This document shows, piece by piece, positions 2,487-23,766 of a stretch of DNA of 23,766 nt. Every line of letters begins with the position of its first letter. Positions within the stretch are counted from its first letter, which is position 1. The stretch comes from a virus. Its lineage: Duplodnaviria; Heunggongvirae; Uroviricota; Caudoviricetes. The notes beneath the pieces were generated by a model. It was not told the origin of the DNA, searched no databases, and saw nothing but the letters and a program-made list of their open reading frames with translations. The stretch lies in IMG/VR virus record IMGVR_UViG_2585427763_000009. The stretch is one strand, 5' to 3'. Made by a program: the position numbers and the translations under genes.

Positions 2487-2711
2487 ATGCATACAGTTTC
2501 TGAAAATCAGTGCGGTAAATACGCATTACTGCTGCAACAGGCCAGAACCGAAGCACAGGCTGACGCTGCGACGCGCTTTTCTTCTCATCTTGACGCCATG
2601 ATTCGCCATATCACAAAGGCGGAGTTATCCCGCGTGGAGATAGTCGAGCTACTCAGTCAGGAGTCGGAAAAATTTCACAATATCGGATTGTCTCGCGGGG
2701 AGGTGCTTTGA
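2487..2711 (+). CDS. Hypothetical protein, P2 orf80 slot (74 aa)
   Basis: ORF in conserved position between B and A; stop overlaps next start (ATGA at 2708). Confidence 0.5.
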
Positions 2712-3010: not shown

Positions 3011-3012
3011 TA

Positions 3013-3237
3013 ATGCCGGACAACGTAGATTTTATTCAGGAACAACAGGCTGAATTACTGGAGCGCCAGATTAACGCGGCAAGGGTAAAACATTGCGGTG
3101 TTTCTTCGCTGGTTTGCGAAGAGTGTGACGCTCCAATACCTGCTGCCCGTCGTGCGGCTTATCCGTCAGCCACGCGTTGTGTTTCCTGTCAGTCAGTCTT
3201 TGAAGCAAAAAACAAACATTACCGGAGAACGGCATGA
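3013..3237 (+). CDS. Small C4 zinc-finger protein (TraR/DksA-like), P2 orf82 slot (74 aa)
   Basis: Two CxxC pairs (CEEC ... CVSC) spaced as in TraR/DksA-type zinc fingers; conserved position. Confidence 0.6.
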   Translation: MPDNVDFIQEQQAELLERQINAARVKHCGVSSLVCEECDAPIPAARRAAYPSATRCVSCQSVFEAKNKHYRRTA

Positions 3238-3509
3238 GTATTCGTATTGAAATTGGCGAACGTTATGTCGTTACCAGTGACAGCTTTCAGTTTATTCTCC
3301 ACGAGAAAAAGAGAGCGGAAAGCGGTAAAAACGCCGGTCAGGAATGGCTGGCGGTGGTTGGTTATTACCCGAAATTAAGCCAGCTCGTTTCCGGCCTGAT
3401 GCATCACGATATTCTGACCGGAAGCGCAAAGTCTTTTGCTGATTTAAACGGGCAGGTTGAGCAACTCAGCAAGCGTTGTTCAGAGGCTTTTGGCTCATAT
3501 GGCCGTTAA
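3234..3509 (+). CDS. Hypothetical protein, P2 orf83 slot (91 aa); 3' end overlaps A
   Basis: ORF coupled to the previous one (ATGA at 3234); its end overlaps the start of A as in P2. Confidence 0.5.
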   Translation: MSIRIEIGERYVVTSDSFQFILHEKKRAESGKNAGQEWLAVVGYYPKLSQLVSGLMHHDILTGSAKSFADLNGQVEQLSKRCSEAFGSYGR

Positions 3510-5778: not shown

Positions 5779-6107
5779 ACGTCGCCAGTTGCGAAAATTA
5801 TTTACAGGGGGCAGCGTTAAGCATCTAAAGATCTTGTTCTATGATTAGAATGTTTCCTCGTTGCACTCTCGTATAGTTATTTAATGGGAAGATGTACTCT
5901 ATATGTTGTGTTTTGGTGATAAATGAAGCCAAAGGAAGGAGATTTTGCTTGATTGATGGGCGCTCTTTGCTATACACCTTGTATTGAGAAGGAGAAGTAA
6001 TCAAGGATTAAGCTGGCTTTTGTCAAAAATCTGAAAAGCTTTTTTGACTGAATACGATAGCGAGTTGTACTATTTGCGCCCTCAAAAGTAACCGGCGGCT
6101 GGGTAAA

Positions 6108-6482
6108 ATGGGGAAGCAAGGCAAAGGCAAAGGCAACAAAAATCAGGTTAAGGTTACGTGGGCTCAGGCGTGGCGGGATGTAATGATAAGAGCCATGTCT
6201 AATGGTCAGTTGATACCTATTACCATCAGTATTATTTTAATGATTGCTGCATGGAGGTTACCAAAAACAGACTTGTCCAATTTAGCCTTCTCTATTGTTG
6301 ATGGCTTTAAGGAGCATTCCTTGGTTGGTTGGGCTATCTCGGTAATAGTGGGTTTGGCTTGGTCTGCACATGCGCGAATCATGAGGCGCTGTTTTAGTTC
6401 CGAGGCACAGAGAATCGGTAACGAGAAAACAAAGTATCAACAAAGACAGACCACTCAAGCCTTGGGTACAAGTGATAAATAG
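6108..6482 (+). CDS. Small membrane protein, two predicted transmembrane helices (124 aa; true start may be the ATG at 6183)
   Basis: AT-rich ORF; hydrophobic segments LIPITISIILMIAAWRL and LVGWAISVIVGLAWSAHA; first gene after A in the cargo slot; a GGCGGGA Shine-Dalgarno-like run precedes the 6183 ATG. Confidence 0.5.
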   Translation: MGKQGKGKGNKNQVKVTWAQAWRDVMIRAMSNGQLIPITISIILMIAAWRLPKTDLSNLAFSIVDGFKEHSLVGWAISVIVGLAWSAHARIMRRCFSSEAQRIGNEKTKYQQRQTTQALGTSDK

Positions 6483-6502
6483 TTGTTTATTTAGGAGTTA
6501 TT

Positions 6503-7060
6503 ATGCTGACAGTGCTGTTTTATGTGCTGTTGGGTTTAGGCGCAGCACACTTCATTTACGAGCGAATCATTTTGCCGTCCATCCGACTTCATTATAGAAA
6601 CCAATTGTTTGCGCTTCGTGATGTCGCTAGGAGGAAAATCATTGATGGAGGTTCCGATACTTCCATGCAAGCGGCAACACTTGTGCATGACTCATTGAAT
6701 AACGCTATCAATAGATTGCATTTACTCACGTTGCCAAACAAATTTCGTGCTCAAAAGCGTATGGCAGAAAACCATGCAATAAGGCAGAAAATTCGGCGTG
6801 AGATAGATGTTTTCAAACGCTGTGATGATAGAGAAGTTGTTGATGTACTGTTTAAATCCGGTCGGATACTTGAAAATGTACTGTTATTCAATAGCTTAAT
6901 GTTATTGCTTTACATGTTTCCATTTGTCCTTGCTGTATGGTTCTGTGTTAGGGTCATAAAGACAGCAAGTAGTTTAGTACAGTGGGTCAAAGGAAGAGAT
7001 TTAGAGGAAGCTATAATGCTGCTTCCTGATACTCAGGTTGAAAAGGTTGTATACGCATAA
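6503..7060 (+). CDS. Membrane protein with N-terminal and C-terminal hydrophobic helices (185 aa)
   Basis: Starts 20 bp after the previous ORF behind an AGGAG Shine-Dalgarno; hydrophobic N-terminus (LTVLFYVLLGLGAAHFIY) and a C-proximal hydrophobic stretch (LLFNSLMLLLYMFPFVLAVWFCV); followed by a strong terminator. Confidence 0.55.
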   Translation: MLTVLFYVLLGLGAAHFIYERIILPSIRLHYRNQLFALRDVARRKIIDGGSDTSMQAATLVHDSLNNAINRLHLLTLPNKFRAQKRMAENHAIRQKIRREIDVFKRCDDREVVDVLFKSGRILENVLLFNSLMLLLYMFPFVLAVWFCVRVIKTASSLVQWVKGRDLEEAIMLLPDTQVEKVVYA

Positions 7061-7062
7061 AA

Positions 7063-7088
7063 ATCACCCCTTAGGGGGTGATTTTTTT
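7063..7088 (+). terminator. Rho-independent terminator after the two-membrane-protein operon
   Basis: Perfect hairpin ATCACCCC-TTAG-GGGGTGAT followed by TTTTTTT, immediately after the stop at 7060. Confidence 0.65.
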
Positions 7089-7299
7089 ACATGACTTTTG
7101 ATTAGCTGACATTGTAAATCCGCATGTATCAGATGCATTGTTTTGCATGTGGAAATGGGTGTTTTCACTGCCAGCTATCGCTACATGTAGCAAAAACACG
7201 GGCTTAATAAGAAATCATTCTGCCATAAGGCATAACTTCCCCGCGTGCTCAGGTATTGACGTCATAGATATGGATCTTTTTTAATCAAGGTATGGTATT

Positions 7300-8247
7300 A
7301 TGAAGATATTTATTAGTTGGTCAGGTCAGGACAGCCTGGAGATAGCAAAAGTATTACGGGATTGGATACCGAATGTTATTCAAGTAGCTGAGCCGTACGT
7401 ATCAGCGGAAGATATTGATAAAGGCACTCGCTGGGCGACTGATATATCAAAGGAACTTGATGACTCTTCTTATGGGATTATTTGCCTTACAAAAAATAAT
7501 ATTAATGCACCGTGGATAAATTTTGAGGCGGGTGCTTTAGGTAAAAAGGTTGATAAGAGCCGGGTTAGTCCTTTCTTGTTTAAAATTAAACCATCTGAGA
7601 TAACAGGCCCAATATTACAATTCCAGTATACTCGTTCGGATGATAAGAACGATATTTTGAAGTTGATGTTGTCAATAAATAATCAAGCAGGATTTTTGAC
7701 TGAAGAACGCTTAACTAAAGCTTTCGAGCAATGGTGGCCAAGTTTAGAGCGTGAGTTAGATAACATTCAAGATATTAACCCTGTAGATAAAGATTCCACT
7801 AAAAAAACAAAAGGTGATTCGACTTCTGAGATACAAAATCTTTCCAAAATTGTTGAAAGTTTGCTGGATATTAGCCGAACAAATCACCAATTATTGCGTG
7901 ATCCAGCATCATTATTGCCAGAAGAATATGTTAGCAAAATAATAAACAGGGAAGGGCGTAAAGAAACTGTTTTAAAAATTGTAGCTTCTGATTTATTATC
8001 CATGCATCATTCACTAATTCGTGTAAAAAGAAGATTTATTCGTCGTGGTATTGATGAAACATCTAGGAGCGAGTTAATTGAATCATTAAATAAAATGATA
8101 ATGGATTGTTCTAGAGTAATCGCTCACTTAGATAATTATTGTGGGGCTTCATCAAACAATATGTTCAATAGTGCGCTTAGATTGCGGACCAGAAATTTAA
8201 TTGACATGATGGATGAGGAGGATGCAGAACGGGATGAAATGGAATAA
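7300..8247 (+). CDS. TIR-domain protein (N-terminal TIR-like fold ~aa 1-150, C-terminal helical domain of unknown function; 315 aa)
   Basis: N-terminus KIFISWSGQDS (bacterial TIR beta-A strand pattern) and SYGIICLTKNNINAPWINFEAGAL (TIR S-x-W-x-x-x-E pattern, candidate catalytic Glu76 at nt 7525-7527); AT-rich; motif-level recognition only, no search. Confidence 0.6.
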   Translation: MKIFISWSGQDSLEIAKVLRDWIPNVIQVAEPYVSAEDIDKGTRWATDISKELDDSSYGIICLTKNNINAPWINFEAGALGKKVDKSRVSPFLFKIKPSEITGPILQFQYTRSDDKNDILKLMLSINNQAGFLTEERLTKAFEQWWPSLERELDNIQDINPVDKDSTKKTKGDSTSEIQNLSKIVESLLDISRTNHQLLRDPASLLPEEYVSKIINREGRKETVLKIVASDLLSMHHSLIRVKRRFIRRGIDETSRSELIESLNKMIMDCSRVIAHLDNYCGASSNNMFNSALRLRTRNLIDMMDEEDAERDEME

Positions 8248-9000: not shown

Positions 9001-9918
9001 ATGGATTATACGAGCTATATAATAGGACAGCTTCAGGTTGAGGATATTATTGATGCAATTAAAGGCGTTAATAATACTAATGTCATAAAAGATTATGTGC
9101 TGCCTGTAGTATTACCAATTATATCTTCTGTGCTGAGTTACTTTATTGCAACTAGGTTGTTTTATCGGCAGGAGGACCTTAAAGCACAAAGAAGAAAGGT
9201 AAGCGTTGTAAATAAATGTATTTATGACTACTTTTCTGCAATGACAACGTTGTTGCAAATTAAAGGGAATTATTATGGTGGGGTAAGTATAAGTGAAAAT
9301 CCTATCGAGAGGGCTTTAGCTTTTCCTGTTGTGGTTTTTTCTGGTGCTCCTCTATCATCAGATTTAAGTGAGTTGGCCTGTATATTGAGTCAAAAGGGAG
9401 TAGGGAATAATAGAGAGCCAGCAAAGACTACTAACTGGGGGGATGCTTTTGCTGTTAGTGATATAGCAAGAAGGTTTAACAGCCTATTGGCTGCATTAAA
9501 TGTTAGGAATGATTTTGATGACACCTATAGAGGAATGATTATTGAATCAACAGGTTCACCTTTGCCTACGATGCGTTTTAAAAATGATGATATTGTTAAT
9601 GCTATAGGTAGTAATAAGGCAGCTTATTACATTGATATTACTGAGCAAATAATGATTATGATAGATGTTTTGTTGCTTGATATTAATCTGTTGCTCAAAG
9701 AGTTGCCATTGTATGCTGAATCGCTGTTTGACAAAAGAGTAATGCAAGAAGATTCAGGGATTCTTAAATTCAATGATTTGCACGAACGTTTTCCTCTACT
9801 TATGAAACCTGTAACGCCACCTTCGATTAAACTCATGTCTGATTATTTGGGGTACAGTGAAGATGAGATCTTACGACGCTATCCATACCCGTTCTTTAAT
9901 ATGCATGATTGTGAATGA
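9001..9918 (+). CDS. Hypothetical membrane-anchored protein (305 aa), translationally coupled to the upstream lipoprotein gene
   Basis: ATG 2 nt after the lipoprotein stop (TGATAATG); one hydrophobic helix (~aa 32-54, VLPVVLPIISSVLSYFIATRLF); AT-rich; no motif I recognise. Confidence 0.55.
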   Translation: MDYTSYIIGQLQVEDIIDAIKGVNNTNVIKDYVLPVVLPIISSVLSYFIATRLFYRQEDLKAQRRKVSVVNKCIYDYFSAMTTLLQIKGNYYGGVSISENPIERALAFPVVVFSGAPLSSDLSELACILSQKGVGNNREPAKTTNWGDAFAVSDIARRFNSLLAALNVRNDFDDTYRGMIIESTGSPLPTMRFKNDDIVNAIGSNKAAYYIDITEQIMIMIDVLLLDINLLLKELPLYAESLFDKRVMQEDSGILKFNDLHERFPLLMKPVTPPSIKLMSDYLGYSEDEILRRYPYPFFNMHDCE

Positions 9919-10198: not shown

Positions 10199-11233
10199 TC
10201 AGCCGTTGTCAGTGTCCAGTGAGTAGTTTTTAAAGCGGATGACCTCCTGACCGAGCCAGCCGTTTATTTCCCGAATCCTGTCCTGTAACGGGATAAGTTC
10301 ATTGCGGACAAAGACCTTTGCCACTTTCTCAATATCGCCCAGCGACCCGACGTTTTCCGGCTTGCCACCCATCAACTGAAAGGGGATGCGGTGCGCGTCC
10401 AGCAGGTCAGCGGCGCTGGCTTTTTTGATATTAAAAAAATCGTCCTTCGTGGCCACTTCACTGAGCGGGATAATTTTAATGCCGTCGGCTTTTCCCTGTG
10501 GGGCATAGAGAAACAGGTTTTTAAAGTTATTGCGGCCTTTCGACTTCACCATGTTTTCGCGGAGCATTTCGATATCGTTGCGATCCTGCACGGCATCAGT
10601 GACGTACATGATGTATCCGGCATGTGCGCCGTTTTCGTAATACTTGCGGCGGAACAGCGTGGCCGACTCATTCAGCCAGGCAGAGTTAAGGGCGCTGAGA
10701 TATTCCGGCAGACCGTACAGCTCCTGATTAATATCCGGCTCCAGCAGGTGAAACACGGAGCCGGGCGCGAAAGGTGTCGGCTCGTTGAAGGACGGCACCC
10801 ACCAGTAAACATCCTCCTCCACGCCACGGCGGGTATATTTTGCCGGTGAGGTTTCCAGTCTGATGACCTTACCGGTGGTGCTGTAACGCTTTTCCAGAAA
10901 CGCATTACCGAATACCAGAAAATCCAGCACAAAGCGGCTGAAATCCTGCTGAGAAAGCCACGGGTGTGGGATAAACGTTGAGGCCAGAATGTTACGTTTG
11001 ACGTAAATCGGTGAGCTGTGATGCACGGCAGCACGCAGGCTTTTTGCCAGACCGGTAAAGCTGACTGGTGGCTCATACCATCTGCCGTTACTGATGCACT
11101 CGACGTAATCCAGAATGTCACGGCGGTCGAGTACCGGCACCGGCTCACCAAAGGTGAATGCCTCCATTTTCGGGGCGCTGGCGGTCATTTTTTTTGCCGC
11201 AGGTTGCGGTGTTTTCCCTTTTTTCTTGCTCAT
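10199..11233 (-). CDS. Q: Capsid portal protein gpQ (344 aa)
   Basis: 344-aa reverse-strand ORF; N-terminus MSKKKGKTPQPAAKKMTASAPKMEAFTFGEP matches remembered P2 gpQ; correct size and position next to cos. Confidence 0.88.
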   Translation of the reverse strand: MSKKKGKTPQPAAKKMTASAPKMEAFTFGEPVPVLDRRDILDYVECISNGRWYEPPVSFTGLAKSLRAAVHHSSPIYVKRNILASTFIPHPWLSQQDFSRFVLDFLVFGNAFLEKRYSTTGKVIRLETSPAKYTRRGVEEDVYWWVPSFNEPTPFAPGSVFHLLEPDINQELYGLPEYLSALNSAWLNESATLFRRKYYENGAHAGYIMYVTDAVQDRNDIEMLRENMVKSKGRNNFKNLFLYAPQGKADGIKIIPLSEVATKDDFFNIKKASAADLLDAHRIPFQLMGGKPENVGSLGDIEKVAKVFVRNELIPLQDRIREINGWLGQEVIRFKNYSLDTDNG

Positions 11234-12042
11234 CAGTAAAACTCCAGAATGGTGGATGTCAGCGGGGTGCTGATACCGGCGGTGAGTGGCTCATTTAACA
11301 GGGCGTGCATGGTCGCCCAGGCGAGGTCGGCGTGGCTGGCTTCCTCGCTACGGCTGGCCTCATAGGTGGCGCTGCGTCCGCTGCTGGTCATGGTCTTGCG
11401 GATAGCCATGAACGAGCTGGTGATGTCGGTGGCGCTGCGTCCGCTGCTGGTCATGGTCTTGCGGATAGCCATGAACGAGCTGGTGATGTCGGTGGCGCTG
11501 CGTCCGCTGCTGGTCATGGTCTTGCGGATAGCCATGAACGAGCTGGTGATGTCGGTGGCGCTGCGTCCGCTGCTGGTCATGGTCTTGCGGATAGCCATGA
11601 ACGAGCTGGTGATGTCGGTGGCGCTGCGTCCGCTGCTGGTCATGGTCTTGCGGATAGCCATGAACGAGCTGGTGATGTCGGTGGCGCTGCGTCCGCTGCT
11701 GGTCATGGTCTTGCGGATAGCCATGAACGAGCTGGTGATGTCGGTGGCGCTGACGTCATATTCCAGACAGCCACGGCGGATGACGTCTTTTGCCTTGAGC
11801 ACCATTGCGGTTTTCATTTCCGGCGTGTAGCGGATATCGCGTGCGGCGGGATAGAACGAGCGCACGAGCTGGAACACGCCGACACCGAGGCCGGTGGCAT
11901 CAATTCCGATGTATTCGACGTTGTATTTTTCGGTGAGTTTGCGGATGGATTCCGCCTGAGTGGCAAAGTCCATGCCTTTCCACTGGTGACGCTCAAGTAT
12001 TCTGAATTTACCTCCGGCCACCACCGGCGGTGCCAGCACCAC
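11233..12042 (-). pseudogene. P: 3' remnant of terminase ATPase/nuclease subunit gene P: 5'-truncated, carrying an expanded in-frame tandem repeat
   Basis: Reverse-strand frame ends 1 nt into the Q start (P2 P-Q arrangement) and contains a terminase nuclease-like motif (YIGIDATGLGVGV), but only ~270 codons remain versus ~590 in P2 gpP; the upstream partner on the + strand is lysozyme K, not O/N/M. Confidence 0.7.
11371..11748. repeat. Perfect tandem repeat, 6 copies of a 63-bp unit (in frame; encodes SATDITSSFMAIRKTMTSSGR x6 on the reverse strand)
   Basis: Unit GCTGCGTCCGCTGCTGGTCATGGTCTTGCGGATAGCCATGAACGAGCTGGTGATGTCGGTGGC starts at 11371, 11434, 11497, 11560, 11623 and 11686 with no mismatches; phase is ambiguous by about 6 nt because the flanks share GGTGGC / GCTG. 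Confidence 0.9.
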
Positions 12043-12058
12043 GCATCCGGCGCTGGCC

Positions 12059-13500: not shown

Positions 13501-13930
13501 TGCCGTCACGGTGCTGAAAACTAACCCCGATATGCTGCGGATATTCGTGGATAACGGGAGTATTGCCTCCACACTGGCGGCGTCGTTGTCATTCGAAAAG
13601 CGTTACACGCTCAATGTCATTGTGACCGACTTTACCGGTGATTTTGACCTGCTCATCGTGCCGGTGCTGGCGTGGCTGCGGGAAAATCAGCCCGACATCA
13701 TGACCACCGACGAAGGCCAGAAAAAGGGCTTCACGTTTTATGCAGACATCAACAATGACAGCAGCTTTGATATCAGTATCAGCCTGATGCTGACCGAGCG
13801 CACGCTGGTCAGTGAGGTTGACGGTGCGCTGCATGTGAAGAATATCCCGGAACCTCCGCCGCCGGAGCCAGTCAATCGCCCGATGGAGCTTTATATCAAT
13901 GGTGAACTGGTGAGCAAGTGGGATGAATGA
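13463..13930 (+). CDS. R: Tail completion protein gpR (155 aa)
   Basis: 155 aa, same size and order as P2 gpR. Confidence 0.82.
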   Translation: MLKPDSLRRALTDAVTVLKTNPDMLRIFVDNGSIASTLAASLSFEKRYTLNVIVTDFTGDFDLLIVPVLAWLRENQPDIMTTDEGQKKGFTFYADINNDSSFDISISLMLTERTLVSEVDGALHVKNIPEPPPPEPVNRPMELYINGELVSKWDE

Positions 13931-14375
13931 GTTTAAGCGTTTTGAAGACCGACTGACCGGACTGATTGAATCGCTGTCACCGTCTGGGCGTCGGCGACTG
14001 AGTGCAGAACTGGCGAAACGTCTGCGGCAGAGTCAGCAGCGTCGGGTGATGGCACAGAAAGCTCCGGACGGCACACCCTACGCACCACGCCAGCAGCAGA
14101 GCGCCAGAAAAAAGACCGGTCGCGTTAAGCGAAAAATGTTTGCGAAACTTATCACCAGTCGTTTTTTGCATATCCGCGCCAGCCCTGAACAGGCATCAAT
14201 GGAGTTTTACGGCGGGAAGGCACCGAAAATCGCCAGTGTGCATCAGTTCGGTCTGTCGGAAGAAACCCGGAAAGACGGTAAGAAAATTGATTATCCGGCG
14301 CGTCCTCTGCTCGGCTTTACCGGTGAGGATGTGCAGATGATTGAAGAGATTATCCTGGCTCACCTTGAGCGTTAG
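13923..14375 (+). CDS. S: Tail completion protein gpS (150 aa)
   Basis: 150 aa, same size and order as P2 gpS; start overlaps the R stop. Confidence 0.82.
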   Translation: MNEFKRFEDRLTGLIESLSPSGRRRLSAELAKRLRQSQQRRVMAQKAPDGTPYAPRQQQSARKKTGRVKRKMFAKLITSRFLHIRASPEQASMEFYGGKAPKIASVHQFGLSEETRKDGKKIDYPARPLLGFTGEDVQMIEEIILAHLER

Positions 14376-14406
14376 TTTTATCCAGACAGAGGCTGATGCG
14401 CAATTA

Positions 14407-14439
14407 AACATTGAGCGGCCATGCTGGTCGCTCAATGTT
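14407..14439. terminator. Hairpin between convergent genes (S on +, cargo gene on -); candidate bidirectional terminator
   Basis: Perfect 11-bp inverted repeat AACATTGAGCG / CGCTCAATGTT around an 11-nt loop, in the 71-bp gap between two convergent stop codons; flanking T/A runs are weak. Confidence 0.4.
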
Positions 14440-14446
14440 TAGAGGT

Positions 14447-15232
14447 TTATGAGTGATTTTTATTTGATGCTTTGTATTCTAAAACCTTCTTATTGGCGTA
14501 AAAGAATTTTGTATATGACAGGAATATAACCAGACCTGAAGTGAAATAGACGAGGGATAGTATTAATAATGCTTTTTTGCGACTGTTATTATCTTTAATC
14601 TCCAGGCTTAACCATTCGGAGTCCTCCTCGTTTAGCTGTAAGAGCTTATTGCAGGCGATTTCAGGAAGTGTGTCTTTTATAAATACGTTTTGCAGTCTCT
14701 TGCAATCGGCAAGGCTATAAGTTTTATTAAATTCAACTGCTTTATTTTTGAAGGATAAAAGAACTTTGTCACTATAAACATAGTACATCATGTTTTTATA
14801 TGGTATGCCTATGGCATCCCTTACTATAACGGATTGTTCGTTGTGTATGTAACATGCGAGGAGAATGTAAAAAATACTGGCCAGAATTACAATTATTGTT
14901 TTAATTATGTGTGGTGGTTTTGTTATGTCACCCCAGATGCGAGTAAGGAAAAAATACGATGTTTTTAGTTTTCCATCAATCAGTCCCTGCTGTATCATTC
15001 TCACATTTTCAATGCCTGATACATTGATTCCGTTAATTATTTTAAATAGTTGAATGTCGCGCCACTCGCGGTCAAGTCTTTTTAATTTTTTGTCTGAATA
15101 TCCAAAATTGAAATAATGTGCAATAAGCCTCATAAGGTTACTTTTACCAAAGCTAAAAAATGCTAATACTGCAAAGCTACAAAGGAAAAAAACGATTAGC
15201 CCCCACACATTAGTCACATTATAGCTGACCAT
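14447..15232 (-). CDS. Hypothetical membrane protein (261 aa, about 3 transmembrane helices), moron in the S/V slot
   Basis: Strongly AT-rich reverse-strand ORF between S and V where P2 carries the non-essential orf30; hydrophobic helices at the N-terminus, middle (IIKTIIVILASIFYILLACYI) and C-terminus (ALLILSLVYFTSGLVIFL). Confidence 0.6.
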   Translation of the reverse strand: MVSYNVTNVWGLIVFFLCSFAVLAFFSFGKSNLMRLIAHYFNFGYSDKKLKRLDREWRDIQLFKIINGINVSGIENVRMIQQGLIDGKLKTSYFFLTRIWGDITKPPHIIKTIIVILASIFYILLACYIHNEQSVIVRDAIGIPYKNMMYYVYSDKVLLSFKNKAVEFNKTYSLADCKRLQNVFIKDTLPEIACNKLLQLNEEDSEWLSLEIKDNNSRKKALLILSLVYFTSGLVIFLSYTKFFYANKKVLEYKASNKNHS

Positions 15233-15315
15233 TACGCTCTCCTTGAATGTTGTCTGGTAGTTCTACAAATGAATCCAGATAGCATAACTTTTATATATTG
15301 TGCAATCTCACATGC

Positions 15316-15951
15316 ATGAACACTCTCGCAAATATTCAGGAACTCGCGCGCGCACTGCGCAACATGATTCGCACCGGCATTATCGTCGAAACCGACCTTA
15401 ACGCCGGTCGCTGCCGCGTGCAGACCGGCGGCATGTGCACCGACTGGCTTCAGTGGCTGACCCATCGCGCCGGTCGTTCGCGCACATGGTGGGCACCTTC
15501 CGTGGGGGAACAGGTGCTGATTCTGTCCGTGGGCGGTGAACTCGACACGGCGTTTGTTCTGCCGGGGATTTATTCCGGCGATAATCCCGCGCCGTCTGCG
15601 TCGGCGGATGCCCTGCATATCCGTTTCCCTGACGGGGCGGTGATTGAGTATGAACCCGAAACCAGTGCGCTCACGGTAAGCGGAATTAAAACGGCCAGCG
15701 TGACGGCTTCCGGTTCTGTTACTGCCACTGTGCCGGTGGTCATGGTGAAAGCGTCAACCCGCATCACCCTGGACACACCGGAGGTGGTCTGCACCAACAG
15801 GCTGATTACCGGCACGCTGGAAGTGCAGAAGGGCGGGACGATGCGCGGCAACATTGAACACACCGGCGGTGAACTCTCATCAAACGGTAAGGTACTGCAT
15901 ACCCATAAACACCCCGGCGACAGCGGCGGCACAACCGGGAGTCCTCTATGA
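15316..15951 (+). CDS. V: Baseplate spike/assembly protein gpV (211 aa from ATG 15316)
   Basis: Matches P2 gpV size and order; start set at MNTLANIQ; stop overlaps the W start. Confidence 0.85.
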   Translation: MNTLANIQELARALRNMIRTGIIVETDLNAGRCRVQTGGMCTDWLQWLTHRAGRSRTWWAPSVGEQVLILSVGGELDTAFVLPGIYSGDNPAPSASADALHIRFPDGAVIEYEPETSALTVSGIKTASVTASGSVTATVPVVMVKASTRITLDTPEVVCTNRLITGTLEVQKGGTMRGNIEHTGGELSSNGKVLHTHKHPGDSGGTTGSPL

Positions 15952-17741: not shown

Positions 17742-19787
17742 ATGAGCATAAAATTCAGAACCGTTATCACCACTGCCGGTGCAGCAAAGCTGGCAGCGGC
17801 AACCGCGCCGGGAGGGCGGAAGGTCAACATTACCACGATGGCCGTCGGGGATGGCGGTGGTAAATTGCCTGTCCCGGATGCCGGACAGACCGGGCTTATC
17901 CATGAAGTCTGGCGACATGCGCTGAACAAAATCAGCCAGGACAAACGAAACAGTAATTATATTATCGCCGAGCTGGTTATTCCGCCGGAGGTGGGCGGTT
18001 TCTGGATGCGTGAGCTTGGCCTGTACGATGATGCGGGAACATTAATTGCCGTGGCGAACATGGCCGAAAGTTATAAGCCAGCTCTTGCCGAAGGCTCAGG
18101 GCGTTCGCAGACCTGTCGCATGGTCATCATCGTCAGCAGTGTGGCCTCAGTGGAGCTGACCATTGACACCACAACGGTGATGGCGACTCAGGATTACGTT
18201 GATGACAAAATTGCAGAGCATGAACAGTCACGACGTCACCAGGACGCCTCGCTGACCGCAAAAGGTTTTACTCAGTTAAGCAATGCGACCAACAGCACGT
18301 CTGAAACACTGGCCGCAACGCCGAAAGCGGTTAAGGCCGCATATGACCTTGCTAACGGGAAATATACCGCACAGGACGCTACCACAGCGCGAAAAGGTCT
18401 TGTCCAGCTAAGTAGTGCGACCAACAGCATATCTGAAACGCTCGCCGCAACACCAAAAGCCGTTAAGACGGTAATGGATGAAACGAACAAGAAAGCGCCA
18501 TTAAACAGCCCTGCACTGACCGGAACGCCAACGACGCCAACTGCGCGACAGGGAACGAATAATACTCAGATCGCAAACACGGCTTTCGTTATGGCCGCGA
18601 TTGCCGCCCTTGTAGACTCGTCGCCTGACGCACTGAATACGCTGAACGAGCTGGCGGCGGCGCTGGGCAATGACCCGAATTTTGCTACCACCATGACTAA
18701 TGCGCTTGCGGGTAAGCAACCGAAAGATGCCACTTTGACGGCGCTGGCGGGGCTTGCTACTGCGGCAGACAGGTTTCCGTATTTTACGGGGAATGATGTT
18801 GCCAGCCTGGCGACCCTGACAAAAGTCGGGCGGGATATTCTGGCTAAATCGACCGTTGCCGCTGTTATCGAATATCTCGGTTTACAGGAAACGGTAAACC
18901 GAGCCGGGAACGCCGTGCAAAAAAATGGCGATACTTTGTCCGGCGGGCTTACTTTTGAAAACGACTCAATCCTTGCCTGGATTCGAAATACTGACTGGGC
19001 GAAGATTGGATTTAAAAATGATGCCGATGGTGACACTGATTCATATATGTGGTTTGAAACAGGTGACAACGGCAATGAATATTTCAAATGGAGAAGTCGC
19101 CAGAGCACCACAACAAAAGACCTGATGAATCTTAAATGGGATGCTCTGTATGTTCTTGTTAAAGCCCTTTTCAGCAGTGAAGTAAAAATATCTACAGTCA
19201 ATGCACTGAGGATATTTAATTCATCTTTTGGGGCTATTTTTCGCCGTTCTGAAGAAAACCTGTATATCATTCCTACACGAGAAAATGAGGGTGAAAATGG
19301 AGATATTGGGCCATTAAGGCCATTCGGCATCAACTTAAGAACAGGAGTTGTGTCTGTTGGTAATGGTGCCAGGATTGATGGCGGGCTGGCACTTGGCACG
19401 AATAACGCGTTGGGTGGGAACTCTATTGTTCTTGGTGATAACGACACCGGATTTAAACAAAATGGCGATGGTAATCTGGATGTTTATGCTAATAACGTCC
19501 ATGTTATGCGCTTTGTTTCCGGAAGCATTCAAAGTAATAAGACCATAAATATTACGGGGCGTGTTAATCCCTCGGATTACGGTAACTTTGATTCCCGCTA
19601 TGTGAGAGATATCAGACTTGGCACACGTGTTGTCCAGACCATGCAGAAAGGGGTGATGTATGAGAAAGCAGGGCACGTAATTACCGGGCTTGGTATTGTC
19701 GGTGAAGTCGATGGTGATGACCCCGCAGTATTCAGGCCAATACAAAAATACATCAATGGCACATGGTATAACGTCGCACAGGTGTAA
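17742..19787 (+). CDS. H: Tail fiber protein gpH (681 aa) with an internal ~25-aa repeat and a lower-GC C-terminal receptor-binding region
   Basis: N-terminus MSIKFRTVITTAGAAKLAAATAPGG matches remembered P2 gpH; tail-fiber repeat copies ...QLSNATNSTSETLAATPKAVKAAYD... and ...QLSSATNSISETLAATPKAVKTVMD... Confidence 0.85.
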   Translation: MSIKFRTVITTAGAAKLAAATAPGGRKVNITTMAVGDGGGKLPVPDAGQTGLIHEVWRHALNKISQDKRNSNYIIAELVIPPEVGGFWMRELGLYDDAGTLIAVANMAESYKPALAEGSGRSQTCRMVIIVSSVASVELTIDTTTVMATQDYVDDKIAEHEQSRRHQDASLTAKGFTQLSNATNSTSETLAATPKAVKAAYDLANGKYTAQDATTARKGLVQLSSATNSISETLAATPKAVKTVMDETNKKAPLNSPALTGTPTTPTARQGTNNTQIANTAFVMAAIAALVDSSPDALNTLNELAAALGNDPNFATTMTNALAGKQPKDATLTALAGLATAADRFPYFTGNDVASLATLTKVGRDILAKSTVAAVIEYLGLQETVNRAGNAVQKNGDTLSGGLTFENDSILAWIRNTDWAKIGFKNDADGDTDSYMWFETGDNGNEYFKWRSRQSTTTKDLMNLKWDALYVLVKALFSSEVKISTVNALRIFNSSFGAIFRRSEENLYIIPTRENEGENGDIGPLRPFGINLRTGVVSVGNGARIDGGLALGTNNALGGNSIVLGDNDTGFKQNGDGNLDVYANNVHVMRFVSGSIQSNKTINITGRVNPSDYGNFDSRYVRDIRLGTRVVQTMQKGVMYEKAGHVITGLGIVGEVDGDDPAVFRPIQKYINGTWYNVAQV

Positions 19788-19790
19788 TTT

Positions 19791-20318
19791 ATGCAGCATT
19801 TAAAAAATATTACTGCGGGTAATCCAAAAACTGTTGCCCAATATCAACTGACAAAAAATTTTGATGTTATCTGGTTATGGTCCGAAGAGGGAAAAAACTG
19901 GTATGAGGAAGTAAGTAATTTTCAGGAAGACACGATAAAGATTGTTTACGACGAGAATAATATAATTGTCGGCATCACCAGAGATGCTTCAACGCTTAAC
20001 CCTGAAGGTTTCAGCGTTGTCGAGGTTCCTGATATTACCTCCAACCGACGTGCTGATGACTCAGGTAAATGGATGTTTAAGGATGGTGCCGTGATTAAGC
20101 GGATTTATACGGCAGATGAACAGGAGCAACAGGCAGAATCACAAAAAGCAGCTTTACTTTCCGAAGCGGAAAGCGTTATTCAGCCACTGGAACGCGCTGT
20201 CAGGCTGAATATGGCGACGGATGAGGAATGCGCACGACTGGAGTCATGGGAACGCTACAGCGTTCTGATCAGCCGTGTGGATCCTGCAAATCCTGAATGG
20301 CCGGAAATGCCGCAATAA
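19791..20318 (+). CDS. G: Tail fiber assembly chaperone gpG (175 aa)
   Basis: 175 aa directly after H; same size and order as P2 gpG. Confidence 0.82.
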
Positions 20319-20539
20319 GTTGTATAAGCTCTGGTGTGAGATTACATATCTATGGCACAGAGTAAAGCCTAATCTGACAGGCCGCTCTGTGTCTGGAGTA
20401 GATTTTAGTAAAGCATTATTTTATTAGTGCAAATTCTAATCAATACATTTTATGTATATGATATCCTACGGACTTTAATGACTTGGTTTAGGCTAACCAG
20501 ATAACACTGAAGGAATATTTTTGATAATTAAGGTGCGGT

Positions 20540-21133
20540 ATGTTTACTAAGCGACGATTAAAAAATATTAACTGGGAGGCAAGTTCAGTGATTCTTGCTA
20601 TGGTTCTCTTTGTTGGAAATATATTTTATACAAATCATCGTGATGATATAAGCATGGAGGCTGAGAGGGACAGTATCAGAACAATGTTTGCATATGAAAT
20701 CGCTAATAACCATCGCGCTCTCACTTTTCTTGATAAAACGAGACATATTGGCTTTGACGAAAATTCGGAGCATTTTGTTGGCGAGCCTTTTGCCATTAAT
20801 GTCAAATCATTAGGGGGACCTCGCTTACAGATTGCATTAAACCAGACTGATAAAGTGTTTAAATCCTACTTCGGCGAATTAAGTAAGCTTGATAAAGAGG
20901 ATGTTACTCTTCTTATGGACTATTACCATGAGCAAAGCATCCTGCTGGAGCGTGTAAAATCTACGTTACAGAAGATGAAAAGTGGTAATGATATTAAAGT
21001 TGATATTGATGGTTGCTTATTAGAAGAACACTTCATGAATGAGCTTAATCTTTCTAATATTTTGCTTAAACGCTATAGCTATTTATTATCACAACACGCT
21101 AAGGAACATAAAACAAAAGATTTACATAATTGA
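20540..21133 (+). CDS. Hypothetical membrane-anchored protein (197 aa) in the Z/fun slot between G and FI
   Basis: AT-rich ORF after a 220-bp AT-rich spacer; single N-terminal hydrophobic helix (SSVILAMVLFVGNIFY) then a soluble domain; no motif I recognise. Confidence 0.55.
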   Translation: MFTKRRLKNINWEASSVILAMVLFVGNIFYTNHRDDISMEAERDSIRTMFAYEIANNHRALTFLDKTRHIGFDENSEHFVGEPFAINVKSLGGPRLQIALNQTDKVFKSYFGELSKLDKEDVTLLMDYYHEQSILLERVKSTLQKMKSGNDIKVDIDGCLLEEHFMNELNLSNILLKRYSYLLSQHAKEHKTKDLHN

Positions 21134-21340
21134 TAATCTGCTAATGGTTATTCATGGGGTAACTATGTTTTATATGTAATCCAGCCCAGATGAATTATTG
21201 ATTCTGGATAATAACCGCAGAGCGGCATATACCCTGACAGGCAAATGTCCGCTTCTTGCTCAAAGCAGACTGTCAGATTTGATAACTTTTGGGCTATGTA
21301 AACTGTCAGTCGGAAAATGAGTGTGTACAAATCAGGACAG

Positions 21341-21365
21341 GCGGGCGAATTGCCCGCATTTTCTT
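21341..21365 (+). terminator. Rho-independent terminator upstream of the FI remnant
   Basis: Hairpin GCGGGC-GAATT-GCCCGC followed by ATTTTCTTT. Confidence 0.5.
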
Positions 21366-21462
21366 TATCTGTTGTTTCATCCACTGACCAGCCAGGTCAA
21401 ATAGCGTCTCATGTACTACCCAACGGAAAATAGTTGCACCCATTAACCACGGAGTTAAACGG

Positions 21463-21576
21463 ATGAGTGACTATCATCACGGCGTGCAGGTGCTGGAGAT
21501 TAACGACGGCACCCGCGTCATTTCCACCGTATCCACAGCCATTGTCGGCATGGTCTGCACGGCTAGCCTCCCGTAA
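21463..21576 (+). pseudogene. FI: Tail sheath gene FI remnant: first ~35 codons only, then a premature stop at the deletion junction
   Basis: Translation [35 protein letters not shown] matches the remembered P2 gpFI N-terminus, then LP-stop. Confidence 0.7.
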
Positions 21577-22327
21577 CAGGCTGGAAGCCAGTGTCGCTCC
21601 GTCACTGGCCGGAATTAAAATCCCGCACATCGACCAGTCGCAGGAGTCCGATGCGAAATTCCTGACCCGTCTTGCTGAACGCAACGGCGGTGAGGTGTCG
21701 GTAAAAATGGGAAAACTGCTGTTTCTCAAAGCGGGGCAGGGGGGGACGGGCAGCGGGAAAAAAATCCCGCAGATTACCATCACCCGCAGCGACGGCGACC
21801 GTCATCATTTTGCGATTGCTGACCGTGGAGCCTACACAGGCGTAACGGCAAAGTGGTTACACACCAAAGACCCGAAGCCGCAAAAGCAGAAGGTAAAACT
21901 GAAACGCAAAAAGAAAGAGAAACACCTGCGCGCACTGGAGCACCCGAAAGCGAAACCGGTCACGCAGAAGAAAGAGCCAAAAGTACCGGAAGCGCGCGAA
22001 GGTGAATACATGGCCGGTGAGGCTGACAACGTTTTTGCCCTGACCACGGTATATGCCACGAAAGCACAGGCCATGCGCGCCGCTCAGGCGAAGTGGGATA
22101 AACTGCAACGGGGTGTTGCGGAGTTCTCCATCAGCCTGGCTACTGGTCGGGCAGATATTTACACGGAAACGCCGGTCAGAGTGTCAGGCTTTAAGCGCGT
22201 CATAGACGAGCAGGACTGGACAATCACTAAGGTGACACATTTTCTGAATAATAGCGGCTTCACGACGTCCCTGGAGCTTGAGGTCAGGCTTTCTGATGTG
22301 GAGTACGAAACAGAAGATGATGAGTGA
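21569..22327 (+). pseudogene. D: 3' portion of tail/late gene D, lacking its 5' region and native start
   Basis: Reading frame out of phase with the FI remnant; translation ...KFLTRLAERNGGEVSVKMGKLLFLKAG...VRLSDVEYETEDDE resembles the C-terminal part of P2 gpD (~387 aa); FII, E, T and U are missing between FI and D. Confidence 0.65.
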
Positions 22328-22408
22328 TGTAATTTATTTATCTGTTTGTTTTATAAGGATAAATTAACTAAAATGGCACCATCAACAAAACCGGAAGAGG
22401 TGCTCGCG

Positions 22409-22627
22409 ATGTTTCATTGTCCTTTATGCCAGCATGCCGCACATGCGCGTACAAGCCGCTATATCACTGACACGACAAAAGAGCGTTATCACCAGTGTCA
22501 GAACGTGAATTGCAGCGCCACGTTCATCACTTATGAGTCGGTACAGCGATACATCGTGAAGCCGGGAGAAGTCCATGCCGTAAGGCCGCACCCGTTGCCG
22601 TCAGGACAGCAAATTATGTGGATGTAA
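22409..22627 (+). CDS. ogr: Late-gene transcriptional activator Ogr (zinc-finger, 72 aa)
   Basis: MFHCPLCQHAAHARTSRYITDTTKERYHQCQNVNCSATF... matches remembered P2 Ogr (CxxC...CxxxxC zinc finger); last phage gene before host DNA. Confidence 0.88.
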   Translation: MFHCPLCQHAAHARTSRYITDTTKERYHQCQNVNCSATFITYESVQRYIVKPGEVHAVRPHPLPSGQQIMWM

Positions 22628-22637
22628 TCACAAAAAT

Positions 22638-22664
22638 AGCCCCTCAGTTGAGGGGCTTTATTTA
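22638..22664 (+). terminator. Rho-independent terminator after ogr
   Basis: Hairpin AGCCCCTC-AGTT-GAGGGGCT followed by a T-rich tract, 10 nt after the ogr stop. Confidence 0.6.
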
Positions 22665-22755
22665 TGGTCGATGTGGACGCTATGTGGACAGCGTTTGATA
22701 TAAATCCATTTATATCATCAGGTTAGGTGCTTTTTTGTGACACCATCCCTGTCTT

Positions 22756-22782
22756 CCCCCACATGATGTGGGGGTTTTTTTT
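22756..22782 (+). terminator. Second hairpin + T-run in the prophage-host junction
   Basis: CCCCCACAT-G-ATGTGGGGG followed by TTTTTTTT; about 80 nt upstream of fieF. Confidence 0.5.
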
Positions 22783-22863
22783 ATCCTCAATTTGCCTGCT
22801 GCTTAATGCATTGCAGATGATTTGCTTCCGTTATACTACCGTCAGTTGATAGCGGGAGTATTT

Positions 22864-23766
22864 ATGAATCAATCTTATGGACGGCTGGTCAGTCGGGCGG
22901 CGATTGCTGCGACGGCGATGGCTTCGCTGCTATTGCTGATTAAAATTTTTGCATGGTGGTATACCGGGTCGGTGAGTATTCTCGCCGCGCTGGTGGATTC
23001 GCTGGTGGATATCGGCGCGTCGTTGACGAATTTACTGGTGGTGCGATATTCCCTGCAACCTGCCGACGATAATCACTCGTTTGGTCACGGTAAAGCTGAG
23101 TCCCTCGCGGCGCTGGCGCAAAGTATGTTTATCTCCGGTTCGGCACTATTCCTGTTTTTGACGGGTATTCAACATCTGGTATCTCCAACACCGATGACAG
23201 ATCCAGGCGTCGGGGTTATCGTGACAATTGTGGCGCTAATTTGTACGATTATCCTTGTCTCGTTTCAGCGTTGGGTGGTGCGCCGGACGCAAAGCCAGGC
23301 GGTGCGGGCTGATATGCTACATTACCAGTCTGATGTTATGATGAACGGCGCAATTCTGCTGGCGCTGGGGTTGTCCTGGTACGGCTGGCATCGCGCCGAT
23401 GCTCTGTTTGCATTGGGGATCGGCATCTATATTTTATATAGCGCGTTACGCATGGGATATGAGGCGGTACAGTCATTACTGGATCGCGCATTGCCTGATG
23501 AGGAACGGCAAGAAATTATTGATATCGTGACTTCCTGGCCGGGTGTTAGCGGCGCTCACGATCTTCGCACGCGGCAGTCAGGGCCGACCCGCTTTATTCA
23601 GATTCATTTGGAAATGGAAGACTCTCTGCCTTTGGTTCAGGCACATATGGTGGCGGATCAGGTAGAGCAGGCTATTTTACGGCGTTTTCCGGGATCGGAT
23701 GTGATTATCCATCAGGACCCCTGTTCCGTCGTACCCAGGGAGGGTAAACGGTCTATGCTTTCATAA
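22864..23766 (+). CDS. fieF: Host cation-diffusion-facilitator ferrous-iron/zinc efflux transporter FieF (YiiP), 300 aa, complete
   Basis: Translation from ATG 22864 ([49 protein letters not shown]...) matches remembered E. coli FieF; the window ends on its stop codon. Confidence 0.85.

What the first reader, a model, noticed from the sequence alone, without database searches (positions are those of the whole stretch)
14447..15232. Reverse-strand 261-aa membrane protein moron between tail genes S and V
Seen: an AT-rich ORF on the opposite strand to the whole late tail operon, with about three hydrophobic helices, bracketed by a hairpin (14407-14439) on one side and the V upstream region on the other. 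Established: P2 carries a non-essential foreign gene (orf30) at this position. Inference: a lysogenic-conversion, superinfection-exclusion or abortive-infection gene; its retention in a defective prophage hints at benefit to the host.
Basis: partly seen in the sequence, partly recalled or inferred. Interest (0 to 1): 0.6.

Follow-up and report, generated by a model that had tools for sequence, protein, structure and literature searches.

The report
Phage P2 orf30 membrane gene
This ORF is the already-catalogued, non-essential gene orf30 of phage P2, a predicted three-helix inner-membrane protein of unknown function; new here is that it belongs to a fast-diverging family that sits in this same tail-gene slot of P2-like prophages in several bacterial genera.

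Summary
Window 14447-15232(-) is an intact 261-aa ORF of 34% GC in 58% GC flanks. It lies opposite to tail genes S and V, next to a strong hairpin, and has three hydrophobic segments. It is P2 orf30 itself (98.9% aa identity, 'nonessential'; PHROG 2407, function unknown). PADLOC, NCBIfam, PDB and BFVD give no informative match. The window protein has no Pfam hit, but 9 of 28 relatives weakly hit DUF6216.

New here: Orf30 belongs to a deep family (44 clusters at 50% identity). Seven of nine subtypes examined lie in the same S-V slot on the opposite strand, in Escherichia/Yersinia-phage, Serratia and uncultured P2-like elements. All are AT-rich. They diverge much faster than their neighbours (46% vs 91-99% identity; dN/dS 0.44 vs 0.02-0.18). 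All 23 copies examined are intact.

Family-wide charge bias and an invariant Cys pair suggest N-out/C-in topology with a disulfide-bonded periplasmic domain. The slot is empty in about 65% of E. coli P2-like prophages, and one alternative cargo resembles a defence gene.

Superinfection exclusion at the inner membrane is my best guess (about 0.3) and is untested. The 'retained in a defective prophage' argument fails, because both deletion junctions are unique to this window.

The parts
14447..15232 (-). orf30 coding sequence, 261 aa: a predicted inner-membrane protein with three transmembrane segments (PHROG 2407)
   Evidence: ORF list. 98.9% aa identity to P2 Orf30. PHROG 2407 at E = 2.7e-147 over the full length. 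23 of 23 copies intact, dN/dS 0.44. Hydropathy and charge analysis. AlphaFold2 model with pLDDT 83.9.
14405..14441 (.). Hairpin between the stop codons of S and orf30. P2 annotates it as a rho-independent terminator of the O operon. It is plausibly bidirectional.
   Evidence: P2 annotation 9397-9433, offset +5008. RNA fold -26.8 and -21.3 kcal/mol on the two strands, z = -5.7 and -5.1.
15239..15244 (-). Shine-Dalgarno AAGGAG, 6 nt upstream of the orf30 ATG
   Evidence: Sequence. Conserved in all E. coli alleles as AAGGAG or GAGGAG. AAGGAG is also present in the Serratia homologues.
15247..15274 (+). Ogr activator-binding site of the late promoter pV (from the P2 annotation). It lies only 15 nt from the orf30 ATG, so the orf30 promoter or leader must overlap it.
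   Evidence: P2 annotation 10239-10266. Sequence.
15276..15284 (-). Best candidate for a degenerate extended -10 element of orf30 (TGCTATCTG). This is an inference only. The Serratia homologues have a clear TGCTACAAT or TGCTAATAT 25-28 nt from their ATG.
   Evidence: The consensus scan found no sigma-70 site upstream of orf30. Comparison of upstream regions.
14380..15315 (.). The whole orf30 cassette. The entire interval from the S stop to the V ATG is specific to this haplotype: terminator, orf30, Ogr site and pV. Relatives with an empty slot have an unrelated 68-bp spacer here.
   Evidence: Junction comparison with the empty-slot loci L006, L007, L013, L014 and L030.
13923..14375 (+). gpS, tail completion (left anchor of the slot)
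   Evidence: PF05069 at E = 6e-44. P2 annotation.
15316..15951 (+). gpV, baseplate spike (right anchor of the slot)
   Evidence: PF04717 and PF18715. P2 V start 10308 plus the 5008 offset.

Best explanation
Identity (near certain): this is gene orf30 of a P2_AC1-like, doubly deleted P2 prophage of E. coli. It is a dispensable accessory cassette inserted between tail genes S and V and read from the opposite strand.

Protein (inferred from sequence and model): an inner-membrane protein with three transmembrane helices. The N-terminus faces the periplasm. A conserved, basic helical domain of about 80 residues faces the cytoplasm. A domain of about 90 residues, with a four-stranded sheet and two helices, faces the periplasm and is probably locked by a C177-C194 disulfide. 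The short basic C-terminal tail is cytoplasmic.

Mechanism (my commitment, about 0.3): the protein is made from the prophage and acts at the inner membrane as a superinfection-exclusion factor. It would interfere with DNA delivery by incoming phages, most plausibly other P2-like or contractile-tailed phages. This would parallel what the three-TM inner-membrane protein SieA does for P22-like phages. No step of this mechanism was shown here.
For: Identity:
- 99.3% nucleotide and 98.9% aa identity to P2 orf30, with the same neighbours and annotated regulatory sites.

Real, selected gene:
- 23 of 23 copies are intact, in 20 alleles.
- dN/dS is 0.44 overall, 0.29 in loop 1 and 0.12 in the second half of loop 2.
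- 464 of 5426 complete E. coli genomes carry it.
- The exhaustive search found 44 family clusters at 50% identity.

Membrane topology:
- Three hydrophobic segments are conserved across the family.
- The N-terminus is acidic, with no K or R.
- Loop 1 has a mean net charge of +5.0 and loop 2 of -0.1.
- All 28 sequences have exactly two Cys in loop 2.
- The AlphaFold2 model reaches pLDDT 83.9 and pTM 0.73.

Accessory nature:
- In 83 loci with near-identical gpS, the slot is empty in 53, holds orf30 in 21 and holds other reverse-strand cargo in 8. The remaining locus (L065) had no detectable V and was not classified.
- 1024 complete E. coli genomes have the empty junction, against 461 with a near-full-length orf30 match.
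- One alternative cargo is a RelA_SpoT protein that matches the PADLOC defence candidate PDC-S33.

Exclusion-like evolutionary pattern:
- Seven of nine subtypes sit in the same slot and orientation.
- Homologues are 46-55% identical where the flanking tail genes are 77-99% identical.
- SieA is likewise a three-TM inner-membrane protein confined to its own phage group, with types under 30% identical (PMC10883804).
- The Serratia homologues carry an extended -10 (TGCTACAAT) plus a Shine-Dalgarno just upstream of their ATG, consistent with expression independent of the late operons.
Against: - No homology to any known exclusion, abortive-infection or defence family in Pfam, PHROGs, NCBIfam or PADLOC.
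- No informative structural match in the PDB or BFVD.
- No consensus sigma-70 promoter upstream of the P2-type allele. Expression in the lysogen is therefore unproven.
- The known P2 exclusion phenotypes map to old, tin and fun (P2 annotation). None has been assigned to orf30 in the papers I could search.
- From my own knowledge: P2 vir mutants plate on P2 lysogens and double lysogens can form. Orf30 therefore cannot block P2 itself efficiently.
- The highest dN/dS is in the membrane anchors (N-terminus plus TM1, 1.15) rather than in the periplasmic domain. Relaxed constraint would explain this as well as an arms race.
- Two recent hotspot papers I read (PMC9122126, bioRxiv 10.1101/2024.10.15.618418) do not list the S-V slot as a defence hotspot.
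Confidence: 0.3

Rival explanations
1. Abortive-infection or membrane-effector protein. The conserved cytoplasmic loop senses an infection cue, and the three-helix bundle then depolarises or permeabilises the inner membrane, killing the cell before the invader completes its cycle.
For: The most conserved part of the family is the predicted cytoplasmic loop, with the motif D-x-Q-L-F-[KR]-x-x-N-G-[IV]-N-V...D-A...G. G29, Q61, G68, D76 and G87 are invariant or nearly so. That loop has a low dN/dS of 0.29. The gene is a single-gene reverse-strand cargo in a slot that can also hold a RelA_SpoT/PDC-S33-type toxin-like gene. The same prophage already carries TIR plus TM effectors in another hotspot.
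Against: No PADLOC hit even at E <= 10. No enzymatic or known sensor domain. Unlike typical abortive-infection genes, the family was seen only in P2-like contexts and not in defence islands. A conserved periplasmic Cys-pair domain has no obvious role in this model.
Confidence: 0.2
2. Lysogenic-conversion or host-fitness factor unrelated to phages. The envelope protein changes membrane or periplasmic physiology, for example stress tolerance, colonisation or resistance to colicins or type VI effectors.
For: It is present in 8.5% of complete E. coli genomes from many hosts. An intact homologue persists in a remnant of a few kilobases in Serratia rubidaea, made of V, the homologue, an S fragment and ogr, surrounded by chromosomal genes. 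AT-rich prophage morons often encode such factors (my own knowledge).
Against: Its tight restriction to a single slot of one phage family argues for a phage-centred role. The rapid divergence points the same way. In the S. rubidaea remnant V is also intact, so recency explains retention equally well.
Confidence: 0.15
3. Accessory function in the P2 lytic cycle itself, for example modulating lysis timing, protecting the infected cell from lysis-from-without, or assisting tail or baseplate events at the membrane. In this case expression would be during infection rather than lysogeny.
For: The gene lies directly after the lysis and tail-completion genes. It is confined to P2-like phages. In the P2-type allele the only room for a promoter overlaps the Ogr-dependent pV control region, so late-gene regulation could impinge on it. 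The cassette carries its own O-operon terminator and pV promoter.
Against: P2 annotates it as nonessential. About two thirds of close relatives lack it entirely yet include viable phages such as Wphi. It is oriented against all late operons.
Confidence: 0.15
4. A decaying or non-functional ORF, that is, selfish filler DNA kept only by linkage.
For: No assigned function after decades. No consensus promoter in the P2-type allele. dN/dS is far higher than in the neighbours.
Against: 23 of 23 copies are intact across 20 alleles. dN/dS is well below 1 in both soluble loops. Architecture, motif and Cys pair are conserved down to about 20% identity. The chance of an open frame this long is about 2e-9. 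A consensus Shine-Dalgarno is present.
Confidence: 0.03

Closest known systems
Bacteriophage P2 Orf30 (AAD03281.1; PHROG 2407)
   Same: Same gene: 98.9% aa identity, 261 aa, same S-V slot, orientation, terminator and pV/Ogr neighbours.
   Different: Three amino-acid differences. Here it sits in a P2_AC1-like prophage with two large deletions.
P22 SieA (superinfection exclusion; PMC10883804)
   Same: A functional analogue only. It is encoded by a temperate phage and is a three-TM inner-membrane protein. It is confined to its own phage group, with sequence types under 30% identical. Orf30 shows a comparable family pattern.
   Different: No sequence or fold similarity was detected. SieA is 162 aa, without the two soluble domains of about 80-90 residues. 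SieA's block of DNA injection is shown experimentally, whereas nothing is shown for Orf30.
P2 lysogenic-conversion genes old, tin and fun(Z)
   Same: Non-essential, AT-rich, reverse-oriented cargo genes in variable slots of the same phage. The orf30 region is listed with the TO and Z regions as the three variable P2 regions (PMC3091744).
   Different: Those genes have mapped exclusion phenotypes (lambda, T-even phages, T5). Their slots hold highly diverse cargo. The S-V slot is mostly either empty or occupied by this one family.
Pfam DUF6216 (PF19723)
   Same: Similar length (model 270 positions). Nine of 28 family members give collinear hits, best E = 8.7e-7. One example is P0041 residues 43-235 against model positions 50-255.
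   Different: The window protein itself gives no hit. The three inspected hits score 17-24 bits, below the 27.3-bit cut-off. DUF6216 has no known function.
Claudin/TARP-type membrane fold

Membership tests
P2 Orf30 / PHROG 2407 | Full-length sequence match to the family profile and to P2 Orf30 | tested here: met
   phrog_2407 at E = 2.7e-147 over 1-261 of 261. 98.9% aa identity to AF063097 Orf30. All 28 aligned relatives hit phrog_2407.
P2 Orf30 / PHROG 2407 | Located between tail-completion gene S and baseplate gene V, on the opposite strand | tested here: met
   The same holds for seven of nine subtypes examined.
Moron (Hendrix-type accessory transcription unit in a prophage) | Present in some close relatives and precisely absent in others | tested here: met
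   Of 83 loci, 21 hold orf30, 53 are empty, 8 hold other cargo and one was not classified. 461 against 1024 complete E. coli genomes. Exact cassette boundaries.
Moron (Hendrix-type accessory transcription unit in a prophage) | Base composition differs from the surrounding phage genes | tested here: met
   34% against 58% GC.
Moron (Hendrix-type accessory transcription unit in a prophage) | Own terminator | tested here: met
   Hairpin immediately after the stop codon, -21.3 kcal/mol on the orf30 strand, z = -5.1. Its function as a terminator is not shown.
Moron (Hendrix-type accessory transcription unit in a prophage) | Own promoter, active in the lysogen | tested here: inconclusive
   No sigma-70 consensus upstream in the P2-type allele. 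Only a degenerate TGCTATCTG that overlaps the pV region. The Serratia homologues have a clear extended -10. Activity cannot be tested here.
Known anti-phage defence systems (PADLOC-DB v2) | Match to a defence-protein model | tested here: not met
   No hits at E <= 10.
Superinfection-exclusion proteins (SieA, Imm, Sp, gp15-type) | Sequence or fold homology to a characterised exclusion protein | tested here: not met
   Only PHROG 2407 (unknown function) was hit. No significant PDB or BFVD match.
Superinfection-exclusion proteins (SieA, Imm, Sp, gp15-type) | Integral inner-membrane location | tested here: inconclusive
   Predicted only, from three conserved hydrophobic segments, charge bias and the Cys pair and from the AlphaFold2 helices. 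No fractionation data.
Superinfection-exclusion proteins (SieA, Imm, Sp, gp15-type) | Expression from the prophage blocks DNA entry of a superinfecting phage | not testable with these tools
   Needs plating-efficiency and injection assays.
Pfam DUF6216 (PF19723) | Score at or above the gathering cut-off of 27.3 bits | tested here: not met
   The window protein has no hit at E <= 1. Relatives score 17.3-24.3 bits where inspected. One member that I did not inspect individually reaches E = 8.7e-7. Remote homology is plausible but unconfirmed.

The most novel reading that the evidence does not exclude
Orf30/PHROG 2407 is a lineage-specific exclusion module of P2-like phages, fixed in one genomic slot. 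It would be the contractile-tail counterpart of P22 SieA. Its periplasmic disulfide-bonded domain would intercept the injection machinery of rival P2-like or other myophages at the inner membrane. Its extreme allelic divergence would record an arms race between sibling prophages. This would be the first injection-blocking protein described for P2-type phages, and a new membrane-protein fold.
Probability: 0.25. Interest if true: 0.6.

Novelty: already known. Interest (0 to 1): 0.33.

Why it matters
P2 is a textbook phage. Three of its non-essential reverse-strand genes (old, tin, fun) turned out to be anti-phage systems, and orf30 is the remaining one with no known function.

It is carried by about 8.5% of complete E. 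coli genomes. As shown here, it is the E. coli branch of a fast-diverging family of three-TM proteins that keeps one slot of P2-like prophages in several genera.

If it proves to be an exclusion or defence factor, it would add a new fold and a new mechanism. It would also mark the S-V slot as a further accessory locus of P2-like phages. If it does not, it remains a widespread prophage membrane protein of unknown role. Either way, the experiment is cheap and well defined.

Tried and rejected
- Pfam, NCBIfam and PADLOC on the window protein gave nothing useful. PHROGs returned only the unannotated family 2407.
- The search for related loci with the deep alignment A2 failed because no stretch was conserved enough. 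With gpS it returned only three Escherichia species from the genome collection, so there was no broad cross-genus slot survey from that source.
- Viral-contig scans with P0017, P0008 and P0040 found no usable loci.
- I suspected that the 268-aa alternative cargo was R18C ORF16. tblastn found no match in the phage collection, so I dropped the claim.
- 'Retention in a defective prophage implies benefit' is rejected, because both deletion junctions are absent from 5426 complete genomes.
- 'Recent foreign acquisition' is rejected as the sole explanation, because distant homologues share the slot.
- 'Positive selection on the periplasmic domain' is not supported. The highest dN/dS values are in the membrane anchors.
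- Literature searches for orf30, DUF6216 and PF19723 found no functional study.

Full report

Yes. Window 14447-15232 on the minus strand is an ATG-initiated ORF of 261 codons. With the ORF's own base composition, a run of 261 sense codons has a probability of about 2e-9. The region is a sharp AT-rich island of 34-36% GC, while S, V, W and J together have 58% GC.

On the left is gpS (PF05069) at 13923-14375(+). On the right is gpV (PF04717/PF18715), whose ATG is at 15316. The hairpin is a 12-bp perfect inverted repeat. It folds at -26.8 kcal/mol on the + strand and -21.3 kcal/mol on the - strand, and no shuffled sequence folds as well. A consensus AAGGAG lies 6 nt upstream of the ATG. Three hydrophobic segments are centred near residues 18, 119 and 230.

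**2. What is it?**

It is bacteriophage P2 gene orf30 itself. The 1.1-kb region is 99.3% identical to P2 (AF063097), and the protein is 98.9% identical to Orf30, which P2 annotates as 'nonessential'.

With an offset of +5008, P2's annotation places three features in the window:
- the putative O-operon terminator at 14405-14441;
- the Ogr activator-binding site of pV at 15247-15274;
- the V start at 15316.

The protein matches PHROG 2407 (unknown function) end to end at E = 2.7e-147. It has no hit in Pfam or PADLOC, and nothing meaningful in NCBIfam.

In the papers I could search, orf30 appears only as 'unknown' and as one of the three variable regions of P2-like genomes, alongside the TO and Z regions (PMC3091744). 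Other phages carry different genes at this site (PMC6823313; PMC13366799). Two recent hotspot papers I read do not treat the S-V slot as a defence hotspot (PMC9122126; bioRxiv 10.1101/2024.10.15.618418). I found no functional study.

**3. The element around it**

The window is a P2_AC1-like prophage, 98% identical over 96% of its length. It is integrated next to E. coli fieF. Relative to P2 it lacks coordinates 1729-7043 (most of P, then O, N, M, L, X, Y and the start of K) and 17757-23190 (FI through most of D).

Neither deletion junction occurs in any of 5426 complete E. coli genomes. The defective state is unique or recent. It cannot be used to argue that orf30 has been retained by selection.

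**4. A real gene under selection**

In 83 loci with near-identical gpS, plus P2 and the window, all 23 orf30 copies are intact, and they comprise 20 different alleles. Mean dN/dS is 0.44, compared with 0.02 for S, 0.07 for W and 0.18 for V in the same loci.

Broken down by region:

| Region | dN/dS |
|---|---|
| N-terminus + TM1 | 1.15 |
| Loop 1 | 0.29 |
| TM2 | 0.49 |
| First half of loop 2 | 0.44 |
| Second half of loop 2 | 0.12 |

TM3 also appears high, but it rests on very few changes. The soluble parts are constrained and the membrane anchors are free to vary. This does not by itself show an arms race.

464 of 5426 complete E. coli genomes carry the gene, and 461 of them have a match covering at least 80% of it.

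**5. The family, and the main new observation**

A word-indexed search found only five clusters. The exhaustive HMMER search found 44 cluster representatives at 50% identity, many of them full-length at 250-270 aa. A 28-sequence alignment with identities down to 16-25% keeps the following:
- the three hydrophobic segments;
- the loop-1 motif D-x-Q-L-F-[KR]-x-x-N-G-[IV]-N-V...D-A...G;
- invariant G68, G87, C194 and I212;
- exactly two cysteines in loop 2 in every sequence.

Reciprocal tblastn with two distant members finds only P2-type orf30 in 50,697 phage records, at E = 1e-7 to 1e-14.

The distant members lie in the same place. Each of the following lies between V and S on the opposite strand:
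- four Serratia subtypes (S. ureilytica, S. nevei, S. quinivorans and a Logan assembly);
- the P0026 subtype (IMG/VR contigs L092-L095);
- the P0006 subtype (L098 and L099).

In S. rubidaea, an intact homologue survives in a remnant of a few kilobases made of V, the homologue, an S fragment and ogr, among chromosomal genes.

There are two exceptions. The P0016 subtype lies beyond R, while a 441-aa ORF fills its S-V slot. An Enterobacter copy sits at a contig end.

Every homologue has 33-38% GC inside flanks of 49-60% GC. Divergence far exceeds that of the neighbours. Between Serratia loci L004 and L089, R, S, V, W and J are 91-99% identical, but the Orf30 homologues are 46% identical. Between E. 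coli and Serratia the figures are 43-70% for the neighbours and 22-25% for Orf30.

'Foreign moron' is therefore only half right. The cassette is dispensable and compositionally alien, but the family is a long-standing tenant of this slot in P2-like phages.

**6. The slot**

The 83 surveyed loci sorted as follows:

| S-V slot content | Loci |
|---|---|
| Empty | 53 |
| orf30 | 21 |
| 357-aa protein with C-terminal hydrophobic segments | 5 |
| 268-aa protein with an Rx4H motif | 2 |
| 366-aa RelA_SpoT protein | 1 |
| Not classified (no V found) | 1 |

All the alternative cargos are on the reverse strand. The RelA_SpoT protein matches the PADLOC defence candidate PDC-S33.

In complete E. coli genomes, 1024 have the empty junction and 461 have orf30.

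The entire interval from the S stop to the V ATG differs between haplotypes. The terminator and the Ogr site with pV travel with orf30. Empty-slot phages have an unrelated 68-bp spacer containing a GC-rich hairpin.

**7. Structure and topology (inference)**

Across the family, the N-terminus is acidic and lacks K and R. Loop 1 (residues 29-107) has a mean net charge of +5.0. Loop 2 (131-220) is neutral and holds the invariant Cys pair. The C-terminal tail is basic.

This fits an N-out/C-in protein with three TM helices, loop 1 in the cytoplasm and a disulfide-bonded loop 2 in the periplasm. One caveat is a basic cluster (R218, K219, K220) just before TM3.

With the 28-sequence alignment, AlphaFold2 gives pLDDT 83.9 and pTM 0.73. 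The model has TM1, a small helical loop-1 domain, TM2, a four-stranded sheet (141-173) followed by two helices, and a long helix containing TM3.

Nine of 28 members give collinear hits to Pfam DUF6216, best E = 8.7e-7. The three hits I inspected were below the gathering cut-off. That family is uncharacterised.

**8. Expression signals**

The consensus scan finds no sigma-70 promoter upstream of the P2-type allele. Only 15 nt separate the ATG from the Ogr site, so any promoter or leader must overlap pV control. The best candidate is a degenerate TGCTATCTG at 15276-15284.

The Serratia homologues carry a clear extended -10, TGCTACAAT or TGCTAATAT, 25-28 nt from the ATG, plus AAGGAG. This supports independent transcription for the family. 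Promoter activity is not shown for any allele.

**9. How it most likely works**

Shown here: identity, accessory status, purifying selection, family architecture, slot fidelity and rapid divergence.

Inferred: inner-membrane location, topology and the disulfide.

Guessed: function. I commit to superinfection exclusion at the inner membrane, at about 0.3. The closest functional parallel is P22 SieA, a three-TM inner-membrane protein. It is restricted to P22-like phages, has types under 30% identical, and blocks DNA injection by relatives (PMC10883804).

The evidence against this is substantial:
- there is no homology to any exclusion or defence family;
- no phenotype has been mapped to orf30, although old, tin and fun were mapped;
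- P2 vir plates on P2 lysogens (my own knowledge), so any target must be heterotypic;
- the fastest-evolving parts are the membrane anchors.

The rivals are an abortive-infection membrane effector (0.2), a host-fitness envelope factor (0.15), a lytic-cycle accessory (0.15) and a non-functional ORF (0.03).

**10. Verdict**

Its function remains unknown, and the defence interpretation is plausible but untested. The added value here is the family-level picture: slot-locked, AT-rich, fast-diverging, with three TM helices and a periplasmic Cys-pair domain. The 'retention' argument also needed correcting. Interest is modest, at 0.33. It would be higher, about 0.6, if an exclusion function specific to P2-type injection were demonstrated.

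Noticed in passing
window 6108-8247 (+), with a further ORF at 9001-9918: The old/tin hotspot of this prophage carries a three-gene TIR plus transmembrane system. The PADLOC matches are 2TM-TIR, 1TM-TIR and TIR-TM, at E = 2e-58 to 2e-118. This corresponds to the P2_AC1 locus that Rousset et al. 2022 validated against lambda, LF82_P8 and P2. It is followed by a 305-aa ORF with no family hit.
   Followed up: partly
window 11365-11757: A 63-bp unit is repeated 6.2 times in tandem (99% matches) inside the truncated terminase gene P'. It corresponds to P2 coordinates about 1353-1430. Origin and significance are unknown.
   Followed up: partly
window ~12052-12055 and ~21564-21567: Two internal prophage deletions relative to P2 (P2 1729-7043 and 17757-23190) remove the head, terminase, sheath, tube and tape-measure genes. 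Neither junction is present in any of 5426 complete E. coli genomes.
   Followed up: yes
window 20540-21133 (+): An AT-rich 197-aa ORF occupies the Z/fun slot between G and the pF promoter. It has no Pfam or PADLOC hit and is a further uncharacterised cargo gene.
   Followed up: partly
window 14380-15315 compared with L006, L007, L013, L014 and L030 at 4451-4520: In P2-like phages with an empty S-V slot, the 68-bp spacer (with a GC-rich hairpin) is unrelated to P2's. The P2 O-operon terminator and the annotated Ogr-dependent pV promoter are therefore part of the orf30 cassette. How V is transcribed in empty-slot phages was not examined.
   Followed up: partly
S-V slots of L008, L027/L033/L045/L048/L081, L034/L043, and L096 1743-3068: Alternative S-V slot cargos, all on the reverse strand: a 366-aa RelA_SpoT protein (PADLOC candidate PDC-S33, resembling fused toxSAS/CapRel-type proteins), a 357-aa protein with C-terminal hydrophobic segments, a 268-aa protein with an Rx4H motif, and a 441-aa ORF. 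The 357-aa and 268-aa proteins have no Pfam or PADLOC hit. The 441-aa ORF was not scanned.
   Followed up: partly
L005 5244-8021 (Serratia rubidaea chromosome): A remnant of a few kilobases of a P2-like prophage (ogr, V, an intact 253-aa Orf30 homologue and a 49-aa S fragment) is embedded among chromosomal genes (ybjN, rimK, grxA ... UbiA family).
   Followed up: no
window 1-1755 and 22730-23766: The integrase and immunity region is only 70-80% identical to P2's, or unmatched. The right flank is E. coli fieF at 100% identity, so this P2-like element uses a different attachment site from P2's own.
   Followed up: partly
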